NCBI RefSeq assembly: GCF_009914755.1
Contig: NC_060935.1
Length of the DNA stretch: 64,000 nucleotides
Strand: one strand, 5' to 3'
Origin: the human T2T-CHM13v2.0 reference genome, Homo sapiens
A model generated the notes under the pieces. The model saw only the letters and a program-made list of their open reading frames with translations. It had not been told where the DNA came from and did no database searches. Position 1 is the stretch's first letter. Each line of letters starts with the position of its first letter. Below, piece after piece: positions 33,901-51,955 of the stretch. The position numbers and the translations under genes are program-made.

Positions 33901-34649
33901 GTTTCCTTTGAAGTGTAGGGTTTAATTTCTTCCTTAGTTTGCTCATTCATTCATTCAGTAAATGTACACTGAGTGCCTACTACACGCTAAGCACTATTTT
34001 AGGCACTGAGGATACAATGATATGTAAAATCCCTGTCCTCATGGAGCTTACACTCTAATGCAGGAAGACAGACAGTAAAGAAATAAAATTATAGTATCTT
34101 GGATGGTGATATGTGCTATAGAGAAAAATAAAATAGAGAAAGGAGATGGGAGGGCGGTTTGCAGTTTCAAATAAAGTGGATTGAAAGTGTAGAGGGAACA
34201 TTTTATATCTTTGTATCCTTAAATAATTGGTAGGATTATCAAGTGTTTTCCTTTCTTATCATGTGAGTAGTTTTCTGTATAGCCCAAATAAACAGTATAA
34301 AAAAGAGAATAAAAAGTTATTTTTTTCCCAGAATTAAAATGCTTGTTTATTTATTTGTATTTAGAGATGGGGTCTTGCTCTGTCACTCAGGCTGCAGTGC
34401 AGTGGCATGATCATGGCTCACTACAGCCTTGACCTCCTGTGCTCAAGTGACCCTTCCACATCAGCCTCTGTAGATGAGACTACAGGTACACACCATCAAG
34501 CCTGGTTAAATTTTTGGGTTTTTTTTTTAAGAGATTGGGTCTCACTATATTGCCCAGGCTGGTCTTGAACTCCAGGCCTCAAAGGATCTTCCTGCCCCGG
34601 CCTCTCAAAGTGTTGGGATTACAGATGTGAGCCATTGCTCTCGGCTGTT

Positions 34650-47148: not shown

Positions 47149-47469
<321 letters not shown>

Positions 47470-48233
47470 TCATTATGTATATAGCAAATTAGTCTTGTTG
47501 CCATGTGGACAGAGACTACCTGTCCTGTGCTTGCTGGAGATGGGATGCATCTAGGGGATGACATTTCTCAAATGCAGAATTTCTCAAATTCTCTGAGGTA
47601 GTTAAGATAGTACCTCGTATAGAGCACATGCTTGGGAAGTGCTTATTCACCCTAATGTTCAGGCCACCATTGGGCCCTCCCTGCCCGTGGATCCTTTCCT
47701 TTTTTCTTCTCCTCTCCCTAAGAGGATTAAAGATTCAGGTGACTCTGTAAGCCACCAGGCAGTGGGCCCCATCTGCCACCCGGGTTCCTGGTCCTTTTCT
47801 GCTCAGCTTTTTAGTCAGCAGTGGTCAGGCCTGCGTCGCCTCTGACTGTGTGTGTAGCACAGTGGGGCATCATGTCTGCAGGATGTTACGGGTTCTTCTG
47901 AGGGTTGGGAGCACATTCCCACTTCAGCTTATGTACTGTTGAAAGAAGCCCTTTTCCTTTGGTGTTTTCTTCCTGCTTGGAGGTGGCATGGTGGGAATGA
48001 GGGGCAGAAGCTGGCTCCCTTCAGGTTCAGTGCACTGACAAAGGGAACCATGTCTTGTGAGTCCTAAGGCAGGACTCCTCTGTTGCCCACCCGTTAGCTG
48101 TCATGGTACAGAGGGGGGCCATAGTAAACAATCCCTGATGGATCCTTTGTTGCTTGTCAGGGGTCTCTAGGAACCTTGGAATAGGTTCAGAGTCTCCAGA
48201 TCCAGCCATTTCCTTTCTAGGCCAGATCTTGAC

Positions 48234-49338
48234 TTTTTTTTTTTTTTTTTTCAACCAGGAGAAATAACTTTATTTGGACTGAGAGCTGGAGAATGAGAAT
48301 AGGACCTGAGAGTATATTGGGCTAAGGAGGAGAGGTAAGGTTCCAAAACGGCGGTCAAAGCTCATCGACTAAACGGACTCTACTTCCCACCAAACTTGCA
48401 GTTAGTGCAACCAACAAAAGGCCTGCTGGGGAATGTATTTGCCACTAAATTCCCCAAGTATGCCAACATTACAAAAAAGATAGAGGTTTCTAATCATAAT
48501 TAAATTTCCACAAACCTCCCCAATCACAAGTATTATAAGCAGAAGTAAAAAAAAATCACATTTTACAGATCTCAAACTTGTCTTCAATATTTAGTTCATC
48601 ATCTTCAAAAAAATAGCTCCCCTGCTAAACTCATTAGCTATCTGATCTATCCAAGCAGCAAGAAGATGGCCAGGCCATGGCAATCCTCTTCCCATTTTCC
48701 CTATCCATTCAGGGCTCAACAGCAGGGTGAGGCTCAGGTTGGGGGTGGGGTGGGGGGAGCACAAGGGCTACTTTCCCCCAGTACAACATGGCTTCTGAAG
48801 CTTGATGGGAGAGCAGAACTGGTGAGACTTGAGGGAAGGGTCCAGGGCCTGTATTCAGTCAGAATCGCTGCTGGAAGAGGAGGAGAAAGAGGAGGAGGAA
48901 TGCTTGCCATGCTTTTGGTGCTTGTGCATCTTTTTATGAGCTTTCTTCATTTTATTCTGCATCTTCTTGTCCGCTGTCACTGCTGGTCTGACCATGCCAG
49001 GAGCCAAGAGATTCACAGGAGGGATTCCAGGGGCAGGCGGTGGGTATGGAGGAAGGTGGGGACCCGAGGATTGGCATCCTGGATACCCTGGCTGTGGTAC
49101 AGGATGAGGGGCCCCACCTGGGAGGAAAGCTGGATTGCCCTGGGGAACTCCTAGGGGAGGAGGACAGGGGCCTGGGGGAAAGGGTGGATTGATAGGTGGT
49201 GGGTGGGCAGGATTGGAACCTCCAGGGCACCCAGTGTTGGGGGATATGGATTTGGCCCTGGCTGTCTGGCATTGGGATTCCACATGTTTAGGTGTGTCCT
49301 CCAGCCTTTCCACGGCTGCCTGGGCTTGATGCGTTCTA
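48234..49338 (-). pseudogene. PRR13P3: Processed pseudogene (retrocopy) of PRR13, proline-rich protein 13
   Basis: Intronless MWNPNARQPGPNPYPP/NTGCPGGSNPAHPPPINPP...KKAHKKMHKHQKHGKHSSSSFSSSSSSDSD* (ATG 49285, stop 48855) with a 1-nt deletion in the C run 49239-49243. 3'UTR, AATAAA 48269-48274, A18 tail. Degenerate TSD ccagatcttgac 48222-48233 / ccagatcctgatgttttt 49339-49356 at a TT/AAAAA site. Parent identity is secure; the P3 number is from memory. Confidence 0.92.
48259..48334 (+). other. CEP164: CEP164 76-nt non-coding 5'UTR exon derived from the antisense strand of the PRR13 retrocopy 3' end
   Basis: TTGAC-T18-CAACCAG| acceptor and GAG|GTAAGG donor; length fits my recollection that the CEP164 ATG is in exon 3, preceded by a c.-97..-22 exon. 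Confidence 0.72.
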
Positions 49339-49734
49339 CCAGATCCTGATGTTTTTAATGGCTGGGCCTTTCTGCTTGAAGAGGGCCGTTTCATCCTTGC
49401 TGCTCCAGGAGGAACAGTGGCAGCTTCTGAGGAAGTGGGGACTGGAGAGGTCAGGACTTGTGGCTCCAGACTCCTGTTGGTCACATTTGGTGTGGCCAAC
49501 TGCTCTGCAGGTTGGGGAGGTGCTCTGAGCAGGTCTGTGTGTGGCAGCAGTTTCCCAGGCGACTTCCTTCATCAGGCTGCAGCATGGGAGCTGCCATGGG
49601 GAGAGTTGGTGGGAACTGGGGTCCTGAGGTAGGGGTGGGAAGAGAGGAGCAATTCTAGAAGTGCACCAGCTTCTCAGTTGAAGAATTTGGCACCGCCCCA
49701 TCCCTGGAGCTAGAAACCTTGGATTCAAGCTGGA

Positions 49735-50220: not shown

Positions 50221-51237
50221 TTTCCACTTTTCCCCCATATCCTGGTCCTATTAAGCTTAACATCACTGGGTCTGTTCTGACTGTCTCTTCTTCATTCCCC
50301 TGCTTCTGCCCTAGTTAAAGTCCTTATCATCTCGCCCCTGGGCAGCAGCCTCCTCAGGTGGTTTTCCTGACACCAGTCTCTCATTTCTCCAATCCAGCCA
50401 TGCCAGTCTTGCCAGAATTCTTGTCCTAAAAAAAGGCCACCCTGTGATACTTTGTTTCACCAGAGCCCTCAGTGACTCCCCTCTGGTGTAGGACAGGGTG
50501 GAGGCTCTTTAGCACGGTCTGCAAGGCTCACTGTGACCAGCCGGTCACACATGTTGGTATCCCCACTCTGGAACACCTGTCTGTGCAAGATGCTCCCTCT
50601 GTTTAGAATGCCTTTCTCCCCCATCAGAATTCTTGCCAGCCTTCCTTCCTTCCTTCCTTTTTTTGGGGAAATTTTTTGCCCTTATCTTAGCACTCTCAGA
50701 ACAGGAAGTTTTTTTCCCTTCTGCCTTCTGCTGCTCTTGAGGTCGTTCCCGCCACTGGATTGTAAGCTTCCTGAGGGCATTTTGGATATGAATCGGGACA
50801 TCCAGATGGGCATATGTGTTGAGATGGGGGTGTGCCACGGAGATGTGCTGGTGTATGGGGGTCTGTGCTGCTGGTTATTTTGGTGTCACTAGGATTTTTA
50901 CTTGGTGGTTCTGTATTATAATTGTTTCTTCTATCTGGGGGAGGCACAAAGTCAAACTCTTGACAGAGCCAGGCTTGAAGATGTTTTGTGGTTCACCAGG
51001 TGTTCATCAAGCCTTTGGGAGACCTTTGCCAGGTGCAGAGCCTGTGAGCCTTGAGTTGTTGGTTTCACCCTCCACTATACCTGGCGCCTGGGAAGGCCCT
51101 GGCCAAATTGCTCTGCAGGGTCTGGTTTGACCCAGATGCTCCATGACCCAGTGCCAACTTTTCCCCTGTTAAGCTTGGTCACTGATTTTTCTCTTTTGGT
51201 GGGGGCCTCTGGGATCTAGGTGTTTGAGCCCAGATGA

Positions 51238-51955
<718 letters not shown>

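What the first reader, a model, noticed from the sequence alone, without database searches (positions are those of the whole stretch)
48222..48340. A CEP164 5'UTR exon built entirely from the scar and tail of a PRR13 retrocopy
Seen: on the plus strand the TSD gives a branch-point-like TTGAC (A at 48232, 27 nt before the exon), the reversed poly(A) tail gives a T18 pyrimidine tract, the last bases of the PRR13 3'UTR give CAACCAG| with no intervening AG, and 76 nt later comes GAG|GTAAGG. Known: antisense poly(A) tails drive Alu exonisation; the same mechanism from an mRNA retrocopy is less commonly described. My recollection that the main CEP164 transcript has a 76-nt non-coding exon 2 fits exactly. 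Inference: a lineage-specific exon whose inclusion may depend on T-tract length and hnRNP C/U2AF65 competition.
Basis: partly seen in the sequence, partly recalled or inferred. Interest (0 to 1): 0.8.

Follow-up and report, generated by a model that had tools for sequence, protein, structure and literature searches.

The report
CEP164 exon from reversed PRR13 pseudogene
The second, non-coding exon of the human CEP164 gene is cut out of a backwards-inserted dead copy of the PRR13 gene, whose reversed poly(A) tail serves as the splicing signal; it is a tidy example of a known way that genes gain exons.

Summary
Window 48234-49338 (minus strand) is an L1-type processed copy of PRR13: no introns, A18 tail, AATAAA 17 nt before the tail, 11-bp target-site duplication (10/11), broken reading frame. 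RefSeq exon 2 of CEP164 (48259-48334, 76 nt, 5'UTR, per the hub table) lies wholly inside it on the other strand.

What the alignments add: the acceptor CCAG|G and the donor GAG|GTAAGG already exist on the antisense strand of the parent's 3'UTR. They are kept in 6 of 6 genomic copies that carry this end. The insertion added only a pyrimidine tract (the reversed tail) and a branch-point candidate in the duplicated target site.

The exon keeps 21 nt that today's PRR13 has lost. It is 70% purine and carries a 10-codon upstream ORF whose ATG sits at a CpG-variable site. The branch length (0.036) suggests a primate-only insertion.

Not testable here: junction reads, inclusion level, presence in other species, hnRNP C binding.

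Antisense retrocopy exons, mostly in UTRs, are already catalogued. This case was not found in print. It is a new member of a known kind and of modest interest.

The parts
48222..48232 (+). Copy of the target-site duplication next to the tail. It overlaps the branch-point candidate TTGAC (48229-48233, A at 48232).
   Evidence: 10 of 11 identical to 49339-49349, and each copy abuts one end of the retrocopy. TTGAC fits the recalled yUnAy consensus and is the nearest A-containing candidate upstream of the T-tract. Its use as a branch point is inferred, not shown.
48234..48251 (+). T18, the reverse complement of the retrocopy's A18 tail. It serves as the pyrimidine tract of the exon 2 acceptor.
   Evidence: (period 1, 18 copies, 100%). 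In the parent gene this position is ordinary genomic sequence with no A run. Up to 5 of the T may come from an A-rich target site rather than the tail (inconclusive).
48252..49338 (-). Body of the PRR13 processed pseudogene (PRR13P3 in the hub table).
   Evidence: It is colinear with three separate pieces of a multi-exon locus at G000 C12:53408736-53412656 at 93-100% identity, and the introns are absent. Identity to the parent is 94.5% over 1012 columns. The reading frame is shifted after about codon 17.
48259..48334 (+). CEP164 exon 2, 76 nt, entirely 5'UTR. It is the antisense of the last part of the PRR13 3'UTR.
   Evidence: Hub RefSeq table (NM_014956.5). AG|G and G|GT flank it. It aligns over its whole length to the parent and to 6 other copies. 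It is 53/76 purine, which only 1.4% of 76-nt windows in intron 1 equal or exceed.
48269..48274 (-). AATAAA polyadenylation signal of the PRR13 mRNA, now inside the CEP164 exon in antisense.
   Evidence: It lies 17 nt upstream of the tail in the mRNA sense.
48276..48296 (+). A 21-nt stretch of the exon that the present-day parent PRR13 gene and the young chr19 copy lack.
   Evidence: It is present in P3, L002, L004 and the chr7 and chr20 copies, and absent in the parent and L003. The placement is ambiguous by about 1 nt.
48293..48325 (+). Upstream ORF of 10 codons plus TAA, wholly inside exon 2. A is at -3 and A at +4 around the ATG.
   Evidence: The ATG sits where the other copies read ACG (L004), ACA (L002) or ATG (chr7, chr20), which is the pattern of a decaying CpG.
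48335..48340 (+). Donor site GTAAGG of exon 2.
   Evidence: It is identical in the antisense of the parent, L002 and L003. L004 has GTGAGT, and chr7 and chr20 have GTGAGG.
49339..49349 (+). Second copy of the target-site duplication, at the 5' end of the retrocopy.
   Evidence: In the retrocopy's sense it is preceded by ...TTAAAAACA, so a longer duplication starting at a TT|AAAA L1 endonuclease site is possible.

Best explanation
An mRNA of PRR13 was reverse-transcribed and inserted by the L1 machinery into intron 1 of CEP164, in the opposite orientation.

Read on the CEP164 strand, the last 83 nt of the PRR13 3'UTR already contained an acceptor (CCAG|G) and, 76-78 nt further on, a strong donor (GAG|GTAAGG). 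The stretch between them is purine-rich. What this latent exon lacked was a pyrimidine tract.

The reversed poly(A) tail supplied that tract as an uninterrupted U18 ending 7 nt before the acceptor AG. The duplicated target site just upstream offers a branch-point candidate (TTGAC, A 27 nt before the exon).

The spliceosome therefore sees a complete exon, and it is exon 2 of the RefSeq-selected CEP164 transcript. It contributes 76 of the 148 nt of the 5'UTR. It also adds a 10-codon upstream ORF.

Shown: the retrocopy origin, the anatomy, and that the core splice sites existed before insertion. Taken from annotation: that the exon is used. Inferred: the branch point, U2AF65 binding to the U18, the timing of first use, and any effect on translation.
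For: 1. Retrocopy.
- The own-genome search gave 14 matches. They include a multi-piece locus on C12 and several intronless copies.
- P3 is colinear across the parent's pieces. The parent's junctions look canonical (...|gtaggt...ag|) and the introns are missing in P3.
- It has an A18 tail, AATAAA 17 nt upstream, a 10/11 target-site duplication and a shifted frame.

2. The exon is inside the retrocopy. Exon 48259-48334 lies within the body 48252-49338 and aligns end to end with the antisense of the parent and of the other copies.

3. The splice sites pre-exist. CCAG|GAGAAATAAC is identical in 7 of 7 sequences (the parent plus 6 copies). The donor GAG|GT(A/G)AG(G/T) is kept in 7 of 7. The parent has no pyrimidine tract in front of the acceptor.

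4. Signal quality on crude measures.
- The acceptor has 18 of 20 pyrimidines at -23..-4. That ties the best of the 13 annotated exon ends examined in the window.
- Its T run is the longest of those 13 (18, against a next best of 7).
- The donor matches 7 of 9 consensus positions, with -2..+5 contiguous.
- The exon is 70% purine with 13 GAR triplets.

5. Use. The hub's RefSeq table places this exon in the selected transcript NM_014956.5, and all four CEP164 exon borders in the window are GT-AG.
Against: No transcript or junction-read data could be examined here, so use rests on the annotation alone.

The crude splice measures are not specific. The same thresholds give 24 acceptor-like sites, 26 donor-like sites and 17 exon-sized pairs in intron 1.

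A continuous U18 is the kind of tract that hnRNP C binds most strongly and from which it displaces U2AF65 (PMC3629564, passages). That argues for repression rather than constitutive inclusion, so the inclusion level may be lower than a place in the selected transcript suggests.

The two copies of the target-site duplication differ at 48229 (T against C), and P3 has a 2-nt deletion and several substitutions inside the exon. Later changes may therefore have been needed for efficient use.

Absence from non-primates is inferred from dating only.
Confidence: 0.85

Rival explanations
1. The exon does derive from the retrocopy, but in vivo it is a partly repressed, alternative exon. On this reading hnRNP C sits on the U18 and blocks U2AF65, much of the CEP164 mRNA skips from exon 1 to exon 3, and the exon's place in the selected RefSeq transcript overstates its use.
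For: In HeLa iCLIP the strongest hnRNP C sites are continuous U-tracts of 9 or more, and hnRNP C alone displaces U2AF65 from such tracts in vitro (PMC3629564, passages). The tract here is 18 uninterrupted U. RefSeq lists 73 CEP164 transcripts with several alternative 5' exons (hub table).
Against: The exon is in the selected transcript (hub table). Its donor and its purine-rich body are strong. Unlike an Alu it has only one U-tract, with none downstream of the donor. No data on this locus were seen. Among the 15 papers listed of the 90 that held at least 2 of the terms CEP164, HNRNPC and 'cryptic exon', none held both CEP164 and HNRNPC.
Confidence: 0.1
2. The annotated exon is an artefact, for example a chimeric or misaligned cDNA that carries antisense PRR13 sequence, and is not part of real CEP164 mRNA.
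For: PRR13 has many near-identical copies in the genome (14 matches), which can mislead alignment. No reads were examined here.
Against: Both borders are canonical and exact. A 76-nt exon cannot come from today's parent mRNA, which lacks 21 of these nucleotides. The exon is in the RefSeq-selected transcript (hub table).
Confidence: 0.02
3. The exon is older than the insertion and its likeness to PRR13 is secondary or coincidental.
For: None found.
Against: The exon aligns over its full length to the 3' end of a multi-exon parent on another chromosome and to 6 dispersed copies. It lies between a tail and a target-site duplication.
Confidence: 0.01

Closest known systems
Exonisation of antisense Alu elements through their poly(A)-derived U-tracts, held in check by hnRNP C (Zarnack et al. 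2013, PMC3629564, passages read; Attig et al. 2016, PMC5115870, abstract and outline read)
   Same: A retroposed element sits antisense in an intron. Its A-run is transcribed as a long continuous U-tract directly upstream of a latent AG and acts as the pyrimidine tract. The donor lies inside the element.
   Different: The source is an mRNA retrocopy, not an Alu. Rfam's SRP model, which picks up the Alus of this region below threshold, gives no hit in 48222-48340. There is one U-tract rather than two. Both splice sites pre-exist unchanged in the parent gene. The exon is in the selected transcript rather than being a cryptic or minor exon.
Type Ib 'exon acquisition in reverse orientation' from mRNA retrocopies (Baertsch et al. 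2008, PMC2584115, passages read), e.g. RPL21/BRCA1, CYCS/RORA, RPS15A/HK1
   Same: An antisense retrocopy inside a host gene donates an exon whose splice sites have no counterpart in the parent's own splicing. Some of their 36 Type I events add UTR exons.
   Different: In the passages read, the pyrimidine tracts of the inspected cases came from antisense oligopurine tracts inside the parent sequence. Here the tract is the tail. CEP164 and PRR13 are not in the paper's main text (0 occurrences each). Its supplements could not be opened.
RetrogeneDB-based survey of retrocopies exapted into host transcripts (Genes 2020, PMC7290577; section 3.3.4 read in full)
   Same: The survey found 71 transcripts using 56 retrocopies, 47 of them from the opposite strand, and the vast majority were integrated in UTRs. 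That is the same category as this exon.
   Different: PRR13P3 is listed there as retro_hsap_931 in a general table. 'CEP164' has 0 occurrences in the held supplement text, which was cut when stored. Whether this case is in their Table S5 remains open.

Membership tests
L1-mediated processed pseudogene (mRNA retrocopy) | Colinear with the spliced mRNA of a multi-exon parent, with the introns absent | tested here: met
   P3 matches three separate pieces of the C12 locus in order. The parent's boundaries carry gt...ag, and P3 runs straight across them.
L1-mediated processed pseudogene (mRNA retrocopy) | Poly(A) tail at the parent's cleavage site, with AATAAA upstream | tested here: met
   A18. 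The tail begins where the parent's genomic sequence diverges from the copies, and AATAAA lies 17 nt upstream.
L1-mediated processed pseudogene (mRNA retrocopy) | Target-site duplication flanking the insert | tested here: met
   11 bp, 10 of 11 identical, abutting both ends.
L1-mediated processed pseudogene (mRNA retrocopy) | L1 endonuclease target of the TT|AAAA type (recalled consensus) | tested here: inconclusive
   The upstream flank in the retrocopy's sense reads ...TTAAAAACA and then the duplication. A longer duplication starting at TT|AAAAA would need one substitution and one deletion in the copy next to the tail.
Antisense retrocopy exon acquisition (Baertsch Type Ib) | An exon of a spliced host transcript lies inside a retrocopy of opposite orientation, with its splice sites inside the retrocopy | tested here: met
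   The exon 48259-48334 (hub RefSeq table) lies inside 48252-49338 on the other strand. The AG is at 48257-48258 and the GT at 48335-48336.
Antisense retrocopy exon acquisition (Baertsch Type Ib) | Transcript evidence for the junctions | not testable with these tools
   Only the RefSeq annotation supplied by the hub was available. No reads or ESTs could be seen.
Antisense retrocopy exon acquisition (Baertsch Type Ib) | Exon absent in lineages that lack the retrocopy | not testable with these tools
   No other mammalian genome is held. Dating by the terminal branch (0.036 substitutions per site) only suggests a primate-age insertion.
hnRNP C-controlled U-tract exon (Alu-exon type) | A continuous U-tract of 9 or more directly upstream of the 3' splice site, derived from an antisense A-run | tested here: met
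   U18 at 48234-48251, ending 7 nt before the AG.
hnRNP C-controlled U-tract exon (Alu-exon type) | Derived from an Alu element | tested here: not met
   The sequence is PRR13 3'UTR. There is no SRP/Alu-like Rfam hit in 48222-48340, although neighbouring Alus are hit.
hnRNP C-controlled U-tract exon (Alu-exon type) | hnRNP C crosslinking at the tract and increased inclusion on HNRNPC knockdown | not testable with these tools
   No iCLIP or knockdown data are accessible. No paper among those listed held both CEP164 and HNRNPC.

The most novel reading that the evidence does not exclude
The antisense 3' end of PRR13 mRNA is a portable, pre-assembled exon. Any PRR13 retrocopy that lands antisense in an intron arrives with acceptor, purine-rich body and strong donor, and its own tail completes the 3' splice site, so the exon can be used from the moment of insertion without any mutation. 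In anthropoid primates this gave the ciliopathy and DNA-damage gene CEP164 more than half of its canonical 5'UTR. It also brought three possible regulatory features:
- an upstream ORF, created by a later CpG transition;
- a U18 tract that would put inclusion under hnRNP C and tract-length control;
- a 55-nt complementarity to the abundant PRR13 mRNA around its polyadenylation signal (duplex -82.9 kcal/mol, against -37.1 +/- 4.3 for shuffles; strong by construction).
Any of these could make CEP164 output primate-specifically tunable.
Probability: 0.15. Interest if true: 0.55.

Novelty: new member of a known kind. Interest (0 to 1): 0.3.

Why it matters
The case shows cleanly how an exon can be born complete. 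Nothing in the core splice sites had to mutate; the retrocopy's tail supplied the one missing signal.

It concerns the reference transcript of a disease gene (CEP164, nephronophthisis-related ciliopathy; this link is recalled and comes from no call). Variants in the T-tract, the donor or the upstream ATG lie in a segment that variant interpretation may dismiss as pseudogene or repeat.

It is also a natural test for the hnRNP C/U2AF65 competition model outside Alu elements.

It does not change what is known about how exons arise.

Tried and rejected
Tools that were closed or gave nothing:
- The supplements of PMC2584115 could not be opened. I did not ask for supplements again, so Additional File 1 of that paper and Table S5 of PMC7290577 may list this case without my seeing it.
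- Two paper runs and one paper reading failed on term syntax. One search was re-sent in corrected form as. One search was dropped.

Literature searches for the specific case:
- 'PRR13P3': 0 papers.
- CEP164 + retrocopy: 1 paper, a volume of meeting abstracts seen in the listing only.
- CEP164 + uORF: 4 papers, 3 listed, and none is about a CEP164 uORF by title.
- CEP164 + '33 exons': 5 papers, 4 listed, and none by title is about CEP164 gene structure.
- FREDDIE preprint main text: 0 occurrences each of CEP164 and PRR13.

Ideas rejected:
- That the purity of the T18 shows selection. The chr11:9.39 Mb copy, of similar age (branch 0.043), keeps an uninterrupted run of about 22-23 A.
- That the RefSeq variant exon start at 48257 is a second acceptor. 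It is preceded by CC, not AG. It is best explained as an alignment shift of an 'AG' caused by a length difference in the A21 run that ends the upstream Alu exon. This is inference.
- Crude splice-site scoring as evidence of use. It yields 17 decoy pairs in intron 1. MaxEnt-type scores could not be run.

Full report
OBSERVATION.
- TTGAC is at 48229-48233, with its A at 48232, 27 nt before 48259.
- An uninterrupted T18 runs from 48234 to 48251. Tandem Repeats Finder agrees: period 1, 18 copies, 100% matches.
- CAACCAG|G follows, with no other AG between the T-tract and the acceptor.
- The exon 48259-48334 is 76 nt and ends GAG|GTAAGG.
- These are the coordinates of exon 2 of NM_014956.5 in the hub's RefSeq table. 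The coding sequence starts at 51241 in exon 3, so the exon is entirely 5'UTR.
- All four CEP164 exon borders in the window are GT-AG.

THE RETROCOPY. A search of the window's own genome with 48234-49340 (minus strand) gave 14 matches.

One group lies on contig 12 at 53408736-53412656. It matches in three separate, ordered pieces at 93-100% identity. The piece boundaries look like exon-intron junctions (...|gtaggt...ag|), and the window copy runs straight across them. That locus is the multi-exon parent. The hub table names the window copy PRR13P3.

The window copy also has these features:
- an A18 tail;
- AATAAA 17 nt before the tail (window 48269-48274, antisense);
- an 11-bp target-site duplication, 48222-48232 against 49339-49349, with 10 of 11 identical. 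By my arithmetic the chance of this in a fixed register is about 8e-6;
- a reading frame that shifts after about codon 17;
- an 18-nt deletion in the His/Lys-rich coding part.

In the retrocopy's sense the upstream flank reads ...TTAAAAACA before the duplication. A longer duplication starting at a canonical TT|AAAA L1 endonuclease site is therefore possible but not clean. If so, a few of the 18 T come from the target site rather than the tail.

WHERE THE SPLICE SIGNALS COME FROM. I aligned the CEP164-strand sequence of this end from seven sources: the parent, the window copy, and five other copies that carry the 3' end (C11:9.39 Mb, C19, C8, C7, C20).
- The acceptor context CCAG|GAGAAATAAC is identical in 7 of 7.
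- The donor is GAG|GTAAGG in the parent, the window copy, L002 and L003. It is GAG|GTGAGT in L004 and GAG|GTGAGG in the chr7 and chr20 copies. A GT donor with a good consensus is therefore kept in 7 of 7.
- In the parent gene the acceptor is preceded by ordinary sequence with no pyrimidine tract. In the copies it is preceded by the reversed tail.

So the antisense of the PRR13 3' end is a latent exon that lacks only a pyrimidine tract. Retroposition adds that tract automatically. No substitution at the core sites separates the window copy from the parent.

The T-tract contains no A, and the As in CAACCAG are too close to the AG. The branch point must therefore lie at least 27 nt upstream. TTGAC in the duplicated target site is the nearest candidate and fits the recalled yUnAy consensus. 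Its use is inferred. The other copy of the duplication reads C at the position of 48229, and either state fits the consensus.

SIGNAL STRENGTH. The measures are crude.
- The acceptor has 18 of 20 pyrimidines at -23..-4. That ties the best of the 13 annotated exon ends of BACE1 and CEP164 examined in the window.
- Its T run (18) is by far the longest; the next is 7.
- The acceptor of exon 3 is much poorer (9 of 20).
- The donor matches 7 of 9 consensus positions, contiguous from -2 to +5.
- The exon is 53/76 purine with 13 GAR triplets. Only 1.4% of the 76-nt windows in intron 1 reach that purine fraction. This fits purine-rich splicing enhancers, which is established knowledge and was not tested here.

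These measures are not specific. The same thresholds give 24 acceptor-like sites, 26 donor-like sites and 17 exon-sized pairs in intron 1. Evidence that the exon is used rests on the annotation alone.

DETAILS OF THE EXON.
- It keeps 21 nt (about 48276-48296) that the present parent and the youngest copy (C19, 99.1% identical to the parent) lack. P3, L002, L004 and the chr7 and chr20 copies have them. The parent lineage deleted them after P3 was made, so the exon is a fossil of an older PRR13 3'UTR.
- Relative to the other copies, P3 has a 2-nt deletion inside the exon. The latent exon was originally 78 nt.
- The 5'UTR of the selected transcript is 148 nt, of which 76 are this exon.
- The exon carries an ATG at 48293 (A at -3) opening a 10-codon ORF that ends at TAA 48323-48325.
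- At that ATG the other copies read ACG (L004), ACA (L002) or ATG (chr7, chr20). This is the pattern of an ancestral CpG decaying independently. The upstream ATG in P3 was therefore probably created after insertion. That is inference, because the parent no longer has the segment.

AGE. In a maximum-likelihood tree of 8 sequences rooted on the chr7 copy:
- the terminal branch of P3 is 0.036 substitutions per site;
- the other terminal branches are C19 0.007, C11:9.39 Mb 0.043, C18 0.049, C1 0.052, C8 0.077 and chr7 0.122;
- the parent lineage since the P3 node is 0.038;
- support for the exact placement of P3 is weak (60), while the clade that also includes L002 has support of 96.

I used recalled calibrations: roughly 3% per lineage since the Old World monkey split and 5-6% since the New World monkey split. 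On these, the insertion falls at roughly 25-45 million years. That means after the separation from rodents and probably from strepsirrhines. This is inference, since no other mammalian genome could be searched with these tools.

REGULATION.
- In the passages I read of Zarnack et al. 2013 (PMC3629564), the strongest hnRNP C sites are continuous U-tracts of nine or more.
- In the same passages, hnRNP C alone displaces U2AF65 from such tracts, and interspersed cytidines relieve this.
- The abstract of Attig et al. [quoted passage not shown]

A U18 next to an exon of the selected transcript is therefore somewhat unexpected. It is the best reason to measure inclusion. The purity of the tract is not evidence of selection, because the similarly old C11:9.39 Mb copy keeps about 22-23 uninterrupted A.

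WHAT IS KNOWN.
- Baertsch et al. 2008 (PMC2584115, passages) described 36 exon acquisitions from retrocopies, including antisense ones and added UTR exons. For the antisense cases they inspected, the pyrimidine tracts came from antisense oligopurine tracts within the parent sequence.
- A 2020 survey (PMC7290577, section 3.3.4 read in full) found 71 transcripts using 56 retrocopies. Of these, 47 were from the opposite strand and most were in UTRs.
- PRR13P3 appears in that paper's supplement as retro_hsap_931. 'CEP164' has 0 occurrences in the held, truncated text.
- Searches for the specific case found nothing: 'PRR13P3' 0 papers; CEP164 + retrocopy 1 unrelated volume of meeting abstracts (listing only); FREDDIE preprint 0 occurrences of either name.

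The kind of event is therefore known. The mechanism matches antisense-Alu exonisation, transferred to an mRNA retrocopy. This instance may be unreported or may sit in a supplementary list that I could not open.

VERDICT. The origin of the exon is established with high confidence. The branch point, the regulation, the lineage range and any function of the upstream ORF are inferred. It is a new member of a known kind and of modest interest.

Noticed in passing
window 47157-47460: The alternative CEP164 exon 47286-47454 is the right arm of a sense-oriented Alu. Sub-threshold Rfam SRP hits lie at 47157-47272 and 47292-47438 on the + strand. Its acceptor is ...atccag|AGATTAGCC, it runs into the Alu's A21 tail (47437-47457), and a G|GTAAAT donor sits at 47458/47459. 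The RefSeq end at 47454 and the odd variant start of exon 2 at 48257 (preceded by CC) look like one alignment shift of an 'AG', caused by an A-run length difference between the transcript and this assembly.
   Followed up: partly
window 34362-34506: The alternative first exon 34426-34485 lies inside an antisense Alu (sub-threshold SRP hit on the minus strand) and ends ...CTACAG|gtac. At least three CEP164 5' exons in this window therefore come from retroposed sequence.
   Followed up: partly
window 47437-47457 and 48234-48251: An A21 and the U18 lie in the same intron on the same pre-mRNA strand, 776 nt apart. One is just upstream of a donor and the other just upstream of the exon 2 acceptor. 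They could pair and mask the pyrimidine tract. This was not evaluated.
   Followed up: no
L007 about 2095 (G000 C12:53412656), against window 48276-48296: The present PRR13 gene and its young chr19 copy (99.1% identical to the parent) share a 21-nt deletion just upstream of the AATAAA signal. Five older copies lack this deletion.
   Followed up: yes
L011 (G000 C7:66471400-66472300) and L012 (G000 C20:4066300-4067150): The chr7 and chr20 copies share about 70 nt of non-PRR13 flank beyond a short T-run and differ by one base in the aligned stretch. One is therefore a segmental duplicate of the other, not an independent insertion. The chr7 copy matches in three pieces spread over 4.9 kb, probably split by later insertions.
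   Followed up: partly
L005 (C18) and L006 (C1): Two copies both end at query position 766-769 of 1107, about 340 nt before the usual 3' end. This suggests an upstream polyadenylation site of PRR13. These copies lack the latent exon.
   Followed up: no
window 51234-51236: Exon 3 has a second upstream ATG 7 nt before the annotated start codon. It is out of frame and opens a 20-codon ORF that overlaps the start of the coding sequence.
   Followed up: no
window 48252-49338 (minus strand): On the tree the parent PRR13 lineage has changed about as fast as the pseudogene since they split (0.038 against 0.036 substitutions per site). This points to weak constraint on most of this short, largely UTR and proline-rich mRNA.
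   Followed up: no
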